Shown here piece after piece: positions 1 to 18,250 of a stretch of 18,250 bases of DNA. The stretch covers positions 1-18,250 of the IMG/VR virus record IMGVR_UViG_3300045988_105363. One strand, given 5' to 3'. Position 1 is the stretch's first letter, and each line of letters opens with the position of its first letter. The position numbers were made by a program, and so were the translations under genes. The notes under the pieces were generated by a model. It was given only the letters and a program-made list of their open reading frames with translations. It was not told the DNA's origin and did not search any database. The stretch is from a virus.

Positions 1-345
1 ACAGTGGCACACTGTGCCCTGTGTCTGTGTTTTCCCCATTGTTTTTTTTAACTTCTCGGCGCCGCGCTCTCTCTGTACTCGACTCGCCTATTTTTTTCTT
101 TCGGTGTCGGGCCTTGTGGTGTTGAGCTTGCTCGCGCCCTTTGCTTGTTTACTGTCTTGTGTCTGTTTTGTTTGCCCGTGATTGGGACTTTGTTTCTTGC
201 CTCTGATTGAGGACTTTTCTTTTTCTTTGTATCTTCATTCTATCGCCTCTTGCTGTGTCTGTCAATTTTTCCGCGTTTGGGCGTGTCGTTTGTTGTCTTG
301 TTTGGTTGCGGTTTGCGACACGCCGGTGGTTGTGGTGTGGTGTGG
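1..345. repeat. Left inverted terminal repeat (ITR-L), perfect 345-bp copy; imperfect similarity continues to about 394
   Basis: The reverse complement of 17906..18250 equals 1..345 (checked block by block). The first mismatch is at 346. Positions 363..386 and ATGGCA at 389..394 match the right end again. Confidence 0.97.
237..265 (-). promoter_or_regulatory. Outward-facing sigma70-type promoter inside ITR-L (TTGACA-17 nt-TAGAAT)
   Basis: On the - strand, TTGACA lies at 265..260, followed by a 17-nt spacer and TAGAAT at 242..237. It points toward position 1 with no gene downstream. Confidence 0.55.
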
Positions 346-358
346 GGTGTGGTATAGT
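330..358 (+). promoter_or_regulatory. Inward early promoter at the inner edge of ITR-L (TTGTGG-17-TGgTATAGT, extended -10)
   Basis: The -10 TATAGT at 353..358 is preceded by TGg. A weak -35 TTGTGG lies at 330..335. The promoter is about 30 nt upstream of the first gene's RBS. Confidence 0.4.
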
Positions 359-388
359 GGGGGTGTCTGGAAAGGACAGGTGATTATG

Positions 389-751
389 ATGGCAATTTCG
401 GAAATGAAGAATACTGGCAAGCATCATTATTATGTGGCGTGCTGGAGCCATGGAATCGGTGTGACTGACAGTGCCGGCAATCCGTATGTCGGTATTCTTG
501 TTTTTGACACTGTTGTTGCGGCTGATGCTTATGCCAATGAACATGCGTATGAAGATGGTCATTCGTATGCTGAGCGCGTTGGCGCTCGTTGTGCAATGCG
601 TATTATGCGGCGCCAATTGTTCTCGGAAATGGTTGATGTTTTGGGCATTCCGCTTTCTTGGCGTGATGATGTTAGCGAGCTGCGTTCGCGCATTAATGGT
701 ATGGGGGTAGATGCTCTTATTGGAGAGTACCGTGTGTACTGTTTTCGCTAG
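389..751 (+). CDS. Hypothetical early protein, 120 aa (left-terminal gene)
   Basis: The RBS AAAGGACAGGTGA lies 5 nt before ATG 389. The ATGGCA aligns with the right-terminal gene's start. An alternative ATG lies at 386. No recognisable domain. Confidence 0.6.
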   Translation: MAISEMKNTGKHHYYVACWSHGIGVTDSAGNPYVGILVFDTVVAADAYANEHAYEDGHSYAERVGARCAMRIMRRQLFSEMVDVLGIPLSWRDDVSELRSRINGMGVDALIGEYRVYCFR

Positions 752-777
752 TTCCAATTGAACCGCAACACGCCGTG

Positions 778-805
778 TTGATTTTTTCGGCACGGCGTGT
801 ATAAT
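778..805 (+). promoter_or_regulatory. Promoter TTGATT-16-TATAAT, embedded in a 10-bp stem hairpin (768..800)
   Basis: TTGATT at 778..783 and TATAAT at 800..805. The arms ACACGCCGTG (768..777) and CACGGCGTGT (791..800) pair, so the hairpin may also act as a terminator for the upstream gene. Confidence 0.5.
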
Positions 806-1107: not shown

Positions 1108-1118
1108 GTTGTAAAAAT

Positions 1119-1153
1119 AAGGCCCTTATAGTTGCGGATACTATAGGGGCCTT
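1119..1153. terminator. Bidirectional stem-loop between the convergent + genes and the - strand tRNA
   Basis: A 14-bp stem, AAGGCCCTTATAGT (1119..1132) pairing with ACTATAGGGGCCTT (1140..1153), includes one G-T pair and has a 7-nt loop. It is followed by GTTGTG on the + strand. Confidence 0.6.
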
Positions 1154-1175
1154 GTTGTGCAATGTGTTATTGGCG

Positions 1176-1249
1176 TGCCCCCAGTAGGGCTTGAACCTAC
1201 GACCGGCCACTTATGAGGTGGTTGCTCTAACCGACTGCGCTATGGGGGC
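1176..1249 (-). tRNA. tRNA with anticodon CAT (elongator Met, or Ile2 if lysidine-modified), 74 nt, CCA not encoded
   Basis: Cloverleaf read by hand: acceptor GCCCCCA/TGGGGGC, D arm GCGC-AGTCGGTTA-GAGC (one G-A mismatch), anticodon arm ACCAC-CTCATAA-GTGGC, variable CGGTC, T arm GTAGG-TTCAAGC-CCTAC, discriminator A. Confidence 0.9.
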
Positions 1250-1257
1250 TTTTGGAC

Positions 1258-1288
1258 GGCGGGGCGAAGAGCGCTCACTCGCCCCACC
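1258..1288 (-). other. GC-rich stem-loop between the tRNA promoter and the tRNA
   Basis: GGCGGGGCGA (1258..1267) pairs with TCGCCCCACC (1279..1288), a 10-bp stem with one mismatch. There is no U tract. It could be a late-operon terminator or a tRNA leader structure. Confidence 0.4.
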
Positions 1289-1297
1289 ACGTTACTT

Positions 1298-1326
1298 AAT
1301 ATACGCTGTGTTTGTCAAGTTGTCAA
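1298..1326 (-). promoter_or_regulatory. Near-consensus promoter TTGACA-17-TATATT upstream of the tRNA
   Basis: On the - strand, TTGACA lies at 1326..1321 (a second TTGACA at 1318..1313 comes from the tandem 8-mer CTTGACAA x2). TATATT lies at 1303..1298. The promoter is downstream of the endolysin stop. Confidence 0.55.
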
Positions 1327-1343
1327 GTCTTGGCGTGTCGCCG

Positions 1344-15804: not shown

Positions 15805-15833
15805 AGTATACCATTACTTCTTCTTCATGTCAA
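15805..15833 (-). promoter_or_regulatory. Near-consensus promoter TTGACA-17-TATACT
   Basis: On the - strand, TTGACA lies at 15833..15828 (overlapping the last codons of the SSB-like gene) and TATACT at 15810..15805. Confidence 0.55.
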
Positions 15834-16289: not shown

Positions 16290-16613
16290 TTACTCGTTGT
16301 CTCCGTCGTAGTCAAGTTCGACATCTTCCGGCGTGTCGTCGTTGTCGGCGCCCAGCGTGTCCGTGATGTCCACAGGGTCACCCACCGGCTGCGCGTGCGC
16401 CATGAAATCCACGATGCCCATGGCGAACGTGGCGCGGTACACGCGCACTTCGCGGGCCAGAAAATCAGGATACAGTTTCTTTGCGCGCGCCACGTACTTC
16501 GCGACATCGCCGTGGCGTCCGACCACAGTATGGGTCATGTCCACGAACTCGCCGTTCACGACTTCCACGCCGTGGAGTTCGGCGTAAATCTCACTGCGCT
16601 TTACGTTGCTCAT
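16290..16613 (-). CDS. Putative p6-like dsDNA-binding / origin-organising protein with an acidic C-terminal tail, 107 aa
   Basis: Its size, its position upstream of the SSB gene (phi29 order 6-5-3-2) and its acidic tail DNDDTPEDVELDYDGDNE support the call. There is loose similarity to p6 (VNGEFV / VDGEVQ; AKKLY / KRKY). RBS AAAGGTGA. Confidence 0.3.
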   Translation of the reverse strand: MSNVKRSEIYAELHGVEVVNGEFVDMTHTVVGRHGDVAKYVARAKKLYPDFLAREVRVYRATFAMGIVDFMAHAQPVGDPVDITDTLGADNDDTPEDVELDYDGDNE

Positions 16614-17155
16614 TGTTTGTCACCTTTCATATGTGTGTTTGCTTTCAGGTCATCAAGATATAACTTCACAACCTGCATACTATCATACCGTGTCGCGTCC
16701 AGTTTGTCAAAACTGTTGAATGCACGCGTCAATGCCTGTTGCACTGTCAGCCTATCAAAAAACACGAGTTTCGCGTCATAGGCGCTGCCGCCGACTGTCT
16801 TAAGCACGGCAGACCACCCATAGAGCACAGGCACGTCAATGCTCCAATCGAGACGTTCGATGCCTCCGGTCAGGGGTAGCATGTCCTCAACCCGCGCGCG
16901 GTTGGCGGTGGCGCACATATCAGCGGCCTTGATGCAGCCGCGCATGAGCGCATCGTCACCGCGTGCATCTCCAACATACAGGCGGGCGAGCAGAGCGGCC
17001 GCGCGACATAGTGTCTCCCAGTCGCCGCCATGGTCGAACCTCTTAAGTTTGAGAATCCTGGCGCGGTTGGTCAGCGCCCGCTTGAATCGTGGAGTCTCGA
17101 AGATGCAATCATCGAAGCTGTTGCCGGACAGCGGGCGGTTTGTCTGTTGTCTCAT
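16610..17155 (-). CDS. Hypothetical early protein, 181 aa
   Basis: It has ATGA start/stop overlaps at both ends (17155/17152 and 16613/16610). No recognisable domain. Confidence 0.6.
   Translation of the reverse strand: MRQQTNRPLSGNSFDDCIFETPRFKRALTNRARILKLKRFDHGGDWETLCRAAALLARLYVGDARGDDALMRGCIKAADMCATANRARVEDMLPLTGGIERLDWSIDVPVLYGWSAVLKTVGGSAYDAKLVFFDRLTVQQALTRAFNSFDKLDATRYDSMQVVKLYLDDLKANTHMKGDKQ
16682..16710 (-). promoter_or_regulatory. Near-consensus promoter TTGACA-17-TATGAT inside the 3' end of the 181-aa gene
   Basis: On the - strand, TTGACA lies at 16710..16705 and TATGAT at 16687..16682, about 60 nt upstream of the p6-like gene's ATG. Confidence 0.55.
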
Positions 17156-17546: not shown

Positions 17547-17575
17547 TTATAAAACAGGTTGCCGAAATCAGTCAA
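17547..17575 (-). promoter_or_regulatory. Promoter TTGACT-17-TTATAA
   Basis: On the - strand, TTGACT lies at 17575..17570 (overlapping the stop of the terminal gene) and TTATAA at 17552..17547, in the AT-rich 78-nt gap before the 113-aa gene. Confidence 0.5.
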
Positions 17576-17862
17576 TTAACCATAAGATACGCTTGGTACA
17601 AATCTTCAAGCGTATCAACGCGAGCGATAGCGCTCAGCGCCTCTTCATTGGCCTTGGAAAGCTCATTGAGGGACAGCAGAGTTTGCTCTGCCGTTTCGCA
17701 ACCATCAAGCATGATACGAATTGCCGCAACCTCGCTGATAGCGTGGAACGTCTCACAGCCACTACGCACAATATACATATTGGCCGCCTCTTCGGAATCA
17801 AACGCCTTTACTATATCCATGGCCTTGGAATAAATGAAGAACTTGCCGGTTGTCAGTGCCAT
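17572..17862 (-). CDS. Hypothetical early protein, 96 aa (right-terminal gene)
   Basis: ATG 17862 lies 5 nt after the ITR-borne RBS AAAGGACAGGTGA. The longer track ORF starts upstream of that RBS. No recognisable domain. Confidence 0.6.
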   Translation of the reverse strand: MALTTGKFFIYSKAMDIVKAFDSEEAANMYIVRSGCETFHAISEVAAIRIMLDGCETAEQTLLSLNELSKANEEALSAIARVDTLEDLYQAYLMVN

Positions 17863-17892
17863 ATTAATCACCTGTCCTTTCCAGACACTCAT

Positions 17893-17921
17893 ATACTATC
17901 ACACACCACACCACACCACAA
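17893..17921 (-). promoter_or_regulatory. Inward early promoter at the inner edge of ITR-R (TTGTGG-17-TGaTAGTAT)
   Basis: Mirror position of the left promoter. The -10 hexamer differs (TAGTAT) but keeps the TGn extension. Confidence 0.4.
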
Positions 17922-18250
17922 CCACCGGCGTGTCGCAAACCGCAACCAAACAAGACAACAAACGACACGCCCAAACGCGGAAAAATTGACAGACACAGCA
18001 AGAGGCGATAGAATGAAGATACAAAGAAAAAGAAAAGTCCTCAATCAGAGGCAAGAAACAAAGTCCCAATCACGGGCAAACAAAACAGACACAAGACAGT
18101 AAACAAGCAAAGGGCGCGAGCAAGCTCAACACCACAAGGCCCGACACCGAAAGAAAAAAATAGGCGAGTCGAGTACAGAGAGAGCGCGGCGCCGAGAAGT
18201 TAAAAAAAACAATGGGGAAAACACAGACACAGGGCACAGTGTGCCACTGT
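17906..18250. repeat. Right inverted terminal repeat (ITR-R)
   Basis: Exact reverse complement of 1..345. The window ends on the last ITR base, as expected for a complete linear protein-primed genome. Confidence 0.97.
17986..18014 (+). promoter_or_regulatory. Outward-facing sigma70-type promoter inside ITR-R (identical copy)
   Basis: TTGACA lies at 17986..17991, followed by a 17-nt spacer and TAGAAT at 18009..18014. It points toward the right terminus. Confidence 0.55.

What the first reader, a model, noticed from the sequence alone, without database searches (positions are those of the whole stretch)
1..265. Near-consensus promoter in each ITR fires outward into about 230 nt of gene-less terminal DNA (candidate pRNA-like or origin-activating transcript)
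TTGACA, exactly 17 nt, then TAGAAT lies on the - strand at 265..237, and identically on the + strand at 17986..18014. The same TTGACA-17-TAxxxT architecture precedes real genes at 15833..15805, 16710..16682 and 1326..1298, so this is the promoter type the phage uses. Here it points at the genome end. A start near 230 (18021 on the right) gives at most a 230-nt A/C-rich run-off RNA. Its only ATG (18212) leaves 13 codons before the DNA ends. I see no intrinsic terminator. The RNA would contain the two small AAUCA-loop hairpins and end in the hairpin ACAGUG-UGC-CACUGU. As I recall, phi29 makes its packaging pRNA from promoter A1 near the left end, transcribing toward that end. This genome has a gp16-type ATPase and a connector with a basic N-terminus, but no other evident pRNA locus. 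The caveat is that the RNA is A-rich and looks weakly structured, unlike known pRNAs. Transcriptional activation of the origins is an alternative reading.
Basis: partly seen in the sequence, partly recalled or inferred. Interest (0 to 1): 0.75.

Follow-up and report, generated by a model that had tools for sequence, protein, structure and literature searches.

The report
Promoter firing off phage genome ends
Each end of this small gut-phage genome carries a real, conserved promoter that points at the DNA end and can only make a short non-coding RNA; that RNA is not a phi29-type packaging RNA, and transcription through the replication origin at the genome end is the most likely purpose.

Summary
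TTGACA-17-TAGAAT lies at 265..237 (-) and 17986..18014 (+), inside a 394-nt ITR of a complete 18,250-bp phi29-like genome related to Bifidobacterium phages. There is no gene or terminator between it and the DNA end. It is not chance: sites matching at least 11/12 number 6, against 0.26 expected.

It is conserved as a promoter. In close relatives the -35 is invariant, the spacer stays 17 nt while its sequence drifts, and the -10 stays functional. In the BP1/BD811P clade (polymerase about 46% identical), 18 of 22 intact termini score at least 11/12, and 14 are perfect. It shares an upstream CGACACGCC box with gene-driving promoters.

The pRNA reading fails. Rfam pRNA does not match, although a phi29 control does. 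No three-way junction or complementary loops exist. The RNA is about 100 nt and unstructured in the BP1 clade, and some relatives lack the promoter.

In the window's subclade, two small hairpins just after the start site covary strongly, and the promoter-plus-hairpin module is duplicated in some genomes.

GenBank already annotates the same outward ITR promoter in Cp-1 and Cp-7, without a function.

Best guess (inferred): early run-off transcription opens the terminal replication origin.

The parts
1..394 (.). Left inverted terminal repeat
   Evidence: arms 1-394 and 17857-18250, 97% complementary. The outer ~340 nt are identical.
17857..18250 (.). Right inverted terminal repeat
237..265 (-). 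Outward promoter, left copy: -35 TTGACA 265-260, 17-nt spacer, -10 TAGAAT 242-237
   Evidence: 11/12. (chance); the -35 is invariant, the spacer length is fixed and the -10 varies among TAGAAT, TACAAT, TATAAT and TATACT in relatives.
17986..18014 (+). Outward promoter, right copy
280..288 (-). Upstream box CGACACGCC, 14 nt upstream of the outward -35 (left copy)
   Evidence: All 6 exact copies in the window lie 5 or 14 nt upstream of a -35, in the direction of transcription. The box is conserved in all relatives.
17963..17971 (+). Upstream box CGACACGCC of the right outward promoter
1..230 (-). Predicted non-coding run-off transcript, left. The start near 230 is inferred from the position of the -10.
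   Evidence: No terminator and no usable ORF. Purine fraction 0.70. Fold z-score -2.34.
18021..18250 (+). Predicted non-coding run-off transcript, right
200..212 (.). Hairpin 2: CCTC-TGATT-GAGG, flanked by TG and ACTT. It lies about +18 to +30 from the predicted start.
   Evidence: 100% of cells pair and the third stem pair appears as UA, CG, AU and GC across relatives. Mirrored at 18039-18051.
175..186 (.). Hairpin 1: CCC-GTGATT-GGG, with the same flanks
   Evidence: Conserved in L003, L094 and L114. Mirrored at 18065-18076.
18039..18051 (.). Hairpin 2, right copy
18065..18076 (.). Hairpin 1, right copy
   Evidence: ITR symmetry.
1..50 (.). Conserved terminal block, the presumed protein-primed replication origin: 41 nt, then T8, then A, including TTTTCCCC
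   Evidence: Conserved in close relatives, and the same 41+T8+A layout occurs in BP1 and about 20 IMG/VR termini. Mirrored at 18201-18250.
316..358 (+). Divergent inward early promoter with its own CGACACGCC box (316-324): -35 TTGTGG 330-335, extended -10 TGgTATAGT 350-358. It drives gene 386-751.
   Evidence: The right-hand counterpart is at about 17893-17935 (-) and drives gene 17862-17572.

Best explanation
What it is (well supported): the site is a genuine early-type promoter for the host RNA polymerase, present once in each ITR. It lies back to back with the inward promoter that drives the first gene at each end. It fires toward the protein-capped DNA end and makes a short non-coding, purine-rich run-off RNA: about 230 nt here, about 100 nt in the BP1 clade and about 143 nt in Cp-1.

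What it most likely does (inferred, not shown): the act of transcribing through the terminal replication origin is the function.
- RNA polymerase uses the 5' protein-linked strand as its template.
- It therefore displaces the strand whose 3' end is the template for terminal-protein-primed initiation.
- A transcription bubble, or a transient terminal RNA-DNA hybrid, would unpair the end and help the terminal protein-polymerase complex to start.
- In phi29 this job is done by protein p6, which has no detectable homologue here.

In the window's subclade the first ~55 nt of the transcript also carry two small covarying stem-loops. These may act on the polymerase or bind a phage protein. Their role and the strand on which they form are unknown.
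For: The promoter is real:
- 11/12 match, with 6 such sites in the window against 0.26 expected, and 0 of 2000 ITR shuffles giving one.
- In 8 aligned relatives of the subclade the -35 is invariant and the spacer stays 17 nt while its sequence changes. The -10 changes only among TAGAAT, TACAAT, TATAAT and TATACT.
- In the BP1 clade, 14 of 22 anchored termini are perfect 12/12 and 4 more are 11/12.
- It carries the same CGACACGCC box, at the same 5- or 14-nt spacing, as promoters that drive real genes and the tRNA.
- The whole promoter-hairpin-box module has been duplicated in tandem, and both copies have stayed intact, in L096 and L114.
- The same outward consensus promoter, divergent from an inward one, lies in the ITRs of the unrelated Cp-1 and Cp-7.

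The act of transcription matters more than the product:
- Apart from the terminal ~50-78 nt origin block, the transcribed sequence is not homologous between clades.
- Its length varies from 100 to 230 to about 360 nt.
- It has no consensus structure in the BP1 clade or in Cp-1 (z = -0.89).

Origin opening is plausible:
- Unpairing 6 nt at the end makes a phi29 origin up to 30-fold stronger (PMC4150772, abstract).
- p6 is thought to act by unwinding the ends (PMC4974454).
- No p6 or other annotated DNA-binding family was found among the small early proteins.
- The RNA is unusually purine-rich: 0.70, against 0.545 +/- 0.036 for coding-sense windows. From general knowledge, this composition favours stable RNA-DNA hybrids.
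Against: - No transcript, start site or replication effect has been measured. The functional step is inference only.
- Some relatives do without the promoter: the L009 and L055 lineages, L044, BadAztec1 and Av-1.
- Two natural variants weaken the -10 at its most conserved T: L089 has TAGAAC and L045 has TATAAC.
- In the phi29 study, origins with fully single-stranded 5' or 3' regions worked poorly (PMC4150772). Complete displacement might therefore not help.
- Outward transcription is head-on to forks that start at the end, and could hinder replication instead.
- The conserved covarying hairpins in the window's subclade suggest that the RNA, or single-stranded DNA, itself matters there.
- The near-constant 45-65 nt distance to the inward promoter fits a regulatory coupling equally well.
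- In the BP1 clade the last ~40 nt of the RNA are C/A-rich, not purine-rich.
Confidence: 0.4

Rival explanations
1. The RNA product is the functional entity. It would be a small terminal non-coding RNA whose two AnUCA-loop stem-loops bind a phage or host protein. It could act in trans (regulation, anti-defence, titration of an RNA-binding factor) or in cis on the transcribing polymerase, as in put- or nut-like antitermination.
For: - The hairpins covary strongly: 100% of cells pair, four Watson-Crick pair types occur at one position, 0 of 500 shuffles match this, and slid controls give 36-43%.
- The loop TGAnT and the flanks TG...ACTT are conserved.
- The hairpins always sit directly downstream of an outward promoter and are duplicated together with it.
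Against: - The hairpins exist only in the window's subclade. The BP1 clade and Cp-1 keep the promoter with an unstructured RNA.
- No copy of the motif occurs elsewhere in these genomes.
- There is no defined 3' end.
- All stem pairs are Watson-Crick, so the hairpin could equally form in single-stranded DNA of either strand.
Confidence: 0.25
2. The outward promoter is a regulatory partner of the inward early promoter. Divergent transcription, or polymerase occupancy, next to the shared CGACACGCC boxes would tune early gene expression near a free DNA end, for example through local negative supercoiling or competition. The run-off RNA would then be a by-product.
For: - The promoter is always back to back with the inward promoter, with 44-65 nt between the two -35 elements, in the window, the BP1-type ITRs and Cp-1.
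- Each promoter has its own box.
- Perfect-consensus hexamers are typical of very tight polymerase binding.
Against: - In L096 and L114 the outer duplicated module has no adjacent inward promoter, yet it stays intact.
- In long-ITR members of the BP1 clade, extra sequence separates the outward promoter from the first gene.
- A short untranslated RNA gives little drag for building supercoils (general knowledge).
Confidence: 0.15
3. The hairpins and the terminal region act as single-stranded DNA during strand-displacement replication, for example as landmarks for SSB, terminal protein or polymerase, or for panhandle formation. The promoter's position next to them would have no direct link.
For: - The ITR strands are extremely asymmetric, with 7% A on the 5' strand. 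This minimises self-structure, so the hairpins stand out.
- In two of the hairpin-1 variants a T.G pair is possible on the + strand only.
Against: - This does not explain the selective pattern on the promoter hexamers or the perfect consensus in the BP1 clade and Cp-1, which lack hairpins.
- The strand hint rests on two cells only.
Confidence: 0.1
4. The transcript is a packaging RNA analogous to phi29 pRNA, bridging the connector and the gp16-type ATPase.
For: - The genome encodes a gp16-type ATPase (PF05894, E = 4.7e-45) and a phi29-type connector (PF05352) with a basic N-terminus, MGRRKKNGAR.
- phi29 pRNA is also made from a 12/12 promoter that points at the nearby genome end.
- No other pRNA candidate is seen in the window.
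Against: - RF00044 gives no match at E up to 10, while the phi29 control scores 145 bits.
- No three-way junction or 5'/3' helix is shared by the window, L003 and L114.
- The two loops are identical rather than complementary.
- The BP1-clade RNA is about 100 nt with 0-3 consensus pairs.
- The promoter is absent from the L009/L055 lineages, BadAztec1 and Av-1, which all have the same packaging genes.
- There is no terminator that would define the RNA.
Confidence: 0.04

Closest known systems
Outward promoter in the 236-bp ITR of Streptococcus phages Cp-1 and Cp-7 (GenBank NC_001825, LK392619)
   Same: - A consensus sigma-70-type promoter (12/12, TTGACA-16-TATAAT with TG) lies inside each ITR, points at the terminus about 145 nt away, and has no gene in front of it.
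- It is divergent from a consensus inward early promoter 44 nt away.
- Its run-off RNA is unstructured (z = -0.89).
   Different: - No sequence similarity; polymerases are ~28% identical.
- Cp-1 has no CGACACGCC box and no TGAnT hairpins.
- In the records it is only a pair of -35/-10 signals with no mapped start site, unlike the PE/PL promoters there. No function is attached.
phi29 promoter A1 and prohead RNA (Rfam RF00044)
   Same: A strong early 12/12 promoter within ~360 nt of a genome end, transcribing toward that end and producing a non-coding RNA (PMC11476376).
   Different: - phi29 has one copy, at the left end only, outside its 6-bp ITR.
- Its product is a defined 174-nt RNA (positions 320-147) with a three-way junction and interlocking CE/D loops (PMC5066667).
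- Here the RNA is a run-off with no such fold, it occurs at both ends, and some relatives lack it.
phi29 protein p6 activation of terminal origins
   Same: The proposed effect is the same: unpairing of the DNA ends to favour protein-primed initiation (PMC4974454, PMC4150772).
   Different: p6 is a DNA-wrapping protein. No p6 homologue was detected here, and the proposed agent is the host RNA polymerase. This is an analogy of function, not membership.
Transcriptional activation of replication origins (lambda ori; R-loop origins of ColE1 and T7) - from general knowledge
   Same: A promoter is placed so that transcription passes through or beside the origin, and a purine-rich RNA could form a hybrid with its template.
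   Different: Those origins are internal and use RNA for priming or for remodelling an initiator complex. Here priming is by protein and the origin is a DNA end. No dependence of replication on transcription has been shown.

Membership tests
phi29-type prohead RNA (pRNA, RF00044) | Match to the pRNA covariance model | tested here: not met
   No RF00044 match in the whole window at E up to 10, nor in L003, BP1 or Av-1. The positive control, phi29 201-318(-), scores 145.4 bits with E = 1e-35. The model is built from Bacillus phages, so a very divergent pRNA could escape it.
phi29-type prohead RNA (pRNA, RF00044) | Three-way junction with a helix formed by the 5' and 3' ends (PMC5066667) | tested here: not met
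   The consensus fold of the window, L003, L091 and L094 keeps only two 4-bp hairpins. The 3-sequence fold has many broken pairs and a positive (penalising) covariation term of +1.67. The BP1 clade gives 0 and 3 consensus pairs.
phi29-type prohead RNA (pRNA, RF00044) | Two loops with intermolecular Watson-Crick complementarity (CE and D loops) | tested here: not met
   Both loops read AAUCA on the RNA strand. They are identical, not complementary.
phi29-type prohead RNA (pRNA, RF00044) | Encoded next to a genome end and transcribed toward it from a strong early promoter | tested here: met
   for the window. for phi29 A1 (356..328, 12/12).
phi29-type prohead RNA (pRNA, RF00044) | Kept in all relatives that use the gp16/connector motor, as expected for an essential part | tested here: not met
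   The outward promoter is absent in L009, L055, L044, BadAztec1 and Av-1, and the -10 is weakened in L089 and L045.
phi29-type prohead RNA (pRNA, RF00044) | Binds proheads; packaging is RNase-sensitive | not testable with these tools
   Needs purified proheads or in vitro packaging.
Housekeeping-sigma (sigma-70/sigma-A) promoter | -35 and -10 hexamers close to consensus at 17 +/- 1 nt | tested here: met
   TTGACA-17-TAGAAT, 11/12. Far above chance.
Housekeeping-sigma (sigma-70/sigma-A) promoter | Hexamers and spacer length conserved while the spacer sequence drifts | tested here: met
   8 sequences of the subclade; 22 termini of the BP1 clade: 14 perfect, 4 at 11/12.
Housekeeping-sigma (sigma-70/sigma-A) promoter | Shares regulatory context with promoters that drive genes | tested here: met
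   A CGACACGCC box lies 5 or 14 nt upstream of the -35 at 265(-), 17986(+), 330(+), 1326(-) and 16315(-). A one-mismatch copy lies 3 nt upstream of the promoter at 778(+).
Housekeeping-sigma (sigma-70/sigma-A) promoter | Mapped transcription start | not testable with these tools
   Needs 5' RACE or dRNA-seq.
Cp-1-type ITR with a divergent promoter pair | Consensus outward promoter inside the ITR, 100-250 nt from the end, with no gene in front of it | tested here: met
   Window. Cp-1/Cp-7.
Cp-1-type ITR with a divergent promoter pair | Inward early promoter back to back within about 45-65 nt | tested here: met
   Window: -35 elements at 265-260 and 330-335. Cp-1: 177-172 and 222-227.
Cp-1-type ITR with a divergent promoter pair | Sequence homology of the ITRs | tested here: not met
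   No DNA match to any GenBank phage, even in sensitive mode. The likeness is architectural only.
Transcription-activated replication origin | Promoter oriented so that transcription crosses the origin | tested here: met
   The conserved terminal block 1-50 lies downstream of the promoter.
Transcription-activated replication origin | Replication depends on that transcription | not testable with these tools
   Needs promoter mutants or in vitro replication with and without RNA polymerase.

The most novel reading that the evidence does not exclude
In long-ITR protein-primed phages that lack a p6-type protein, host RNA polymerase itself would be the origin-opening factor. A consensus promoter in each ITR drives run-off transcription to the protein-capped end. 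The purine-rich RNA forms a transient terminal hybrid with the 5' strand and exposes the 3' template end to the terminal protein-polymerase complex. In the window's subclade the two covarying 5' hairpins would keep the polymerase going to the end, or would recruit a phage factor. This would be a transcription-activated bacterial-virus 'telomere' origin. It would have arisen at least twice, in pneumococcal Cp-1-like phages and in gut Bifidobacterium phages.
Probability: 0.3. Interest if true: 0.75.

Novelty: new variant of a known kind. Interest (0 to 1): 0.5.

Why it matters
How protein-primed origins on long ITRs are opened is known only for phi29 (p6) and adenovirus (cellular factors). A conserved, often perfect-consensus promoter that fires off the genome end now appears in two unrelated groups of long-ITR phi29-like phages. 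That gives a concrete, cheap hypothesis to test in cultured systems: BP1, BD811P1-3 and Cp-1.

The result also narrows the open question of whether pRNA exists outside the Bacillus phages. The most obvious candidate locus in this abundant human-gut Bifidobacterium phage group is not a pRNA.

The small covarying hairpin module and the CGACACGCC promoter box are new regulatory elements for phages of a key infant-gut genus.

Tried and rejected
- DNA similarity to GenBank phages gave no match for the whole window (megablast) or for the ITR (sensitive blastn).
- The terminal protein as a query against IMG/VR gave no relatives. The polymerase as a single query against JGI metagenome contigs also gave none. 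Relatives came instead from the protein database plus contig look-ups and from a polymerase alignment against IMG/VR.
- An exact search for hairpin 2 found 0 hits in viral contigs and 12 in metagenome contigs. The latter look like chance matches in unrelated contexts. L109 has two tandem similar hairpins but no phage context; I did not pursue it.
- A hairpin in the hypervariable 13-nt block of the BP1-clade termini was rejected. Pairing was 71% against 70% in shuffles, and a slide of -3 was as good.
- A larger conserved fold of the 230-nt RNA was rejected. The single-sequence z-scores are modest: -2.34 and -1.71.
- A small ORF in the transcript was rejected: only ATG 18212, 13 codons, no ribosome-binding site.
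- No p6-like or other annotated DNA- or RNA-binding early protein was found in Pfam or PHROGs.
- The tRNA-Met locus (1108-1343) was considered as an alternative pRNA site. It is an ordinary tRNA (58.8 bits) with a leader hairpin and a terminator, and 15 relatives lack it. I rejected it.
- The 'packaging RNA' annotated in Av-1 (16295-16402) is not recognised by Rfam and has no counterpart here.
- The Cp-1 genome paper (PMC190243) is not held in the library, so I could not check what its authors said about the outward ITR promoter.

Full report
WHAT THE WINDOW IS. The 18,250-bp window is a complete linear genome with 394-nt inverted terminal repeats. It encodes the phi29-type core set:
- a protein-primed family-B polymerase (PF03175);
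- a phi29-type SSB;
- a phi29-type capsid protein, tail knob, connector (PF05352) and lower collar;
- a gp16-type packaging ATPase (PF05894), a holin and an amidase.
Almost all genes run on the - strand from 17862 to 1344. Two small genes (386-751 and 841-1107) run inward from the left ITR, and a tRNA-Met sits at 1175-1249 (-). No GenBank phage matches at the DNA level. By polymerase, the nearest isolates are Bifidobacterium phages BD811P1-3 and BP1 at about 47% identity. Near-identical contigs come from human gut metagenomes. The host is therefore probably a gut Bifidobacterium; this is an inference.

TTGACA-17-TAGAAT lies at 265..237 (-) and 17986..18014 (+). Sites matching at least 11/12 number 6 in the window, against 0.26 expected from 300 dinucleotide shuffles. 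None of 2000 shuffles of the ITR produced an outward site of that quality. Downstream of the promoter there is no terminator-like site on the outward strand and no usable reading frame. Position 1 is probably the real terminus. In the BP1 record an Illumina adapter abuts the genome end, and the T8A motif lies at nt 42-50 from that end, exactly as in the window.

IT IS CONSERVED AS A PROMOTER.
- Contigs of the window's own subclade came from look-ups of polymerase and end-gene homologues. Their alignment shows the -35 invariant in all eight sequences. The spacer is always 17 nt but free in sequence. The -10 varies only among TAGAAT, TACAAT, TATAAT and TATACT.
- In the much more distant BP1/BD811P clade (80 IMG/VR loci), 22 contigs reach the conserved terminal block. 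Of these, 14 carry a perfect TTGACA-17-TATAAT and 4 more score 11/12. The -10 ends 103-120 nt from the contig end.
- The promoter is preceded by an A/T tract and by a CGACACGCC box. All six exact copies of that box in the window lie 5 or 14 nt upstream of a -35, in the direction of transcription. These include the inward ITR promoters, the tRNA-Met promoter and the promoter at 16315. The outward promoter therefore belongs to the same regulated set as promoters with obvious products.

EXCEPTIONS.
- The L009 and L055 lineages and L044 have no outward promoter. In L021 the -35 is deleted.
- BadAztec1 (259-nt ITR) and Av-1 have none scoring at least 10/12.
- Two genomes change the most conserved T of the -10: L089, otherwise near-identical to the window, has TAGAAC, and L045 has TATAAC.
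The element is therefore favoured by selection but not indispensable.

THE pRNA READING FAILS ITS TESTS.
- The Rfam pRNA model finds phi29 pRNA at 145 bits. It finds nothing in the window, L003, BP1 or Av-1.
- The single-sequence folds are only modestly better than shuffles, with z = -2.34 and -1.71.
- The consensus fold across the subclade keeps just two 4-bp hairpins. With a third divergent sequence (L114) no larger fold gains support.
- The two hairpin loops are identical (AAUCA) rather than complementary. This rules out the interlocking-loop ring that defines pRNA (PMC5066667).
- In the BP1 clade the run-off RNA is about 100 nt, with A 55-60% and C 23-27%. Its consensus structure has 0 pairs on one strand and 3 on the other.
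- A recent review states that pRNA is known only from phi29 and related Bacillus phages (PMC11476376). This locus does not change that.

A NEW SMALL ELEMENT IN THE WINDOW'S SUBCLADE. Two stem-loops lie directly downstream of the predicted start site, in the form TG-[4 bp]-TGAnT-[4 bp']-ACTT. Across relatives the stems read CCTC/GAGG, CCCC/GGGG, CCGC/GCGG, CCAC/GTGG and CGCC/GGCG. All cells pair, and one stem position shows all four Watson-Crick pairs. No shuffle matches this, and slid controls pair at only 36-43% (with the 3-bp hairpin 1 included). In L096 and L114 the whole module (box, promoter, hairpins) is duplicated in tandem. The two copies have diverged, but both stay intact. Because all pairs are Watson-Crick, I cannot tell whether the hairpin forms in the outward RNA or in single-stranded DNA. 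The motif is absent from the BP1 clade and from the rest of these genomes.

THE ARCHITECTURE IS NOT UNPRECEDENTED. The GenBank records of Streptococcus phages Cp-1 and Cp-7 annotate -35/-10 signals on the outward strand inside their 236-bp ITRs. My scan scores the site 12/12 with an extended -10. It lies 44 nt from a divergent 12/12 inward promoter and about 145 nt from the end. Unlike the PE/PL promoters in those records, no start site is annotated for it, and its run-off RNA is unstructured (z = -0.89). phi29 A1 is the third case of a 12/12 promoter pointing at a nearby end. Six other phi29-like left ends that I scanned have none, although the E. coli-type consensus may miss promoters of high-GC hosts.

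MOST LIKELY MECHANISM.
- Shown: a conserved early-type promoter aimed at the end, with a non-coding and mostly unstructured product. The product's sequence and length are not conserved between clades, apart from the terminal origin block.
- Inferred: the function lies in transcription through the origin. RNA polymerase reads the 5' protein-linked strand. It therefore frees the strand whose 3' end is the template for protein-primed initiation.
- Supporting background: in phi29, end unpairing limits initiation. Six unpaired nucleotides give up to 30-fold stronger origins (PMC4150772), and protein p6 is thought to act by unwinding the ends (PMC4974454). No p6 homologue was found here.
- The transcript is exceptionally purine-rich: 0.70, against 0.545 +/- 0.036 for coding-sense windows. 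From general knowledge, such RNA forms stable hybrids with its template.
I give the whole statement about 0.4, and the 'real outward promoter' layer about 0.85.

RIVALS. They are a hairpin-bearing functional RNA (0.25), regulatory coupling with the inward early promoter (0.15), a single-stranded-DNA role for the hairpins (0.1) and a pRNA analogue (0.04).

VERDICT. This is a new variant of a known kind: an end-directed promoter as in phi29 A1 and the Cp-1 ITR, but with a different product and a new hairpin module. Interest is moderate (0.5). The feature is conserved, recurrent and cheaply testable in cultured phages, but its function is unproven and the architecture was already annotated in Cp-1.

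Noticed in passing
window 280-288(-), 316-324(+), 1332-1340(-), 16330-16338(-), 17927-17935(-), 17963-17971(+); 766-774(+) with one mismatch: A 9-nt box, CGACACGCC, lies 5 or 14 nt upstream of the -35 of several promoters, always in the direction of transcription. With up to one mismatch it occurs 24 times, against 6.8 expected. It is also conserved in the BP1 clade and in BadAztec1. It is probably the binding site of an unknown early regulator.
   Followed up: partly
window 1108-1343 (-): This 18-kb phi29-like genome carries a tRNA-Met (1175-1249) with its own 11/12 promoter (1326..1298), a strong leader hairpin and a bidirectional terminator. The fold z-score is -3.44. None of 15 relatives scanned has a tRNA.
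   Followed up: partly
L008 (GenBank PQ571273, phage BP1) 1-291: The deposited BP1 genome starts with about 258 nt of duplicated internal sequence, followed by an Illumina adapter (259-291). The true left end begins at 292, and the right ITR is truncated at the position matching 380.
   Followed up: yes
window 1-15 and 18236-18250: The extreme termini form a perfect palindrome, ACAGTG-GCA-CACTGT. L114 independently confirms the sequence from nt 7 onward, but no other contig reaches nt 1-6, so an assembly fold-back cannot be fully excluded. BP1-clade termini have no such palindrome.
   Followed up: partly
L096 1-300; L114 170-430: The box-promoter-hairpin module is duplicated in tandem in some relatives. 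This places a second outward promoter about 360 nt from the end.
   Followed up: yes
window 1-360 (+ strand) and its mirror: The ITR shows extreme strand asymmetry. The 5'-ending strand has only ~7% A and is rich in TG repeats, such as GGTGTGGTGTGGGGTGTGG at 331-352. The BP1 clade shows the same bias.
   Followed up: partly
window 766-805 (+); also L093-L096: The 14-bp hairpin ACACGCCGTGTTGA-TTTTT-TCGGCACGGCGTGT ends exactly at the -10 TATAAT and contains the -35 TTGATT of the promoter for gene 841-1107. A terminator-like structure therefore overlaps a promoter, and the arrangement is conserved in relatives.
   Followed up: no
L093, L094, L095, L096, L114 compared with window 386-751 and 17572-17862: A homologue of the window's left-end gene sits in relatives at the polymerase-proximal end, upstream of the homologue of the window's right-end gene. 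ITR-adjacent genes therefore move between ends.
   Followed up: no
A4 columns 84-99 (BP1-clade termini, about nt 76-91 from the end): A hypervariable 13-nt block is embedded between highly conserved terminal sequences. It does not form a covarying hairpin. The cause of its variability is unknown.
   Followed up: partly
L111 (BadAztec1) 1-26 and 141-166: The first 26 nt of the BadAztec1 ITR are the reverse complement of nt 141-166. This is either a terminal fold-back structure or an assembly artefact.
   Followed up: no
L112 (Av-1) 16295-16402: The Av-1 record annotates a 'packaging RNA' that overlaps two ORFs on the opposite strand. The Rfam pRNA model does not recognise it.
   Followed up: partly
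L109 600-650: An unrelated metagenome contig carries two tandem hairpins that closely resemble hairpin 2: CCTC-TGGGC-GAGG-ACTTTTT and CCTC-TGAGT-GAGG-ACTTTTT. Its context is unknown.
   Followed up: no
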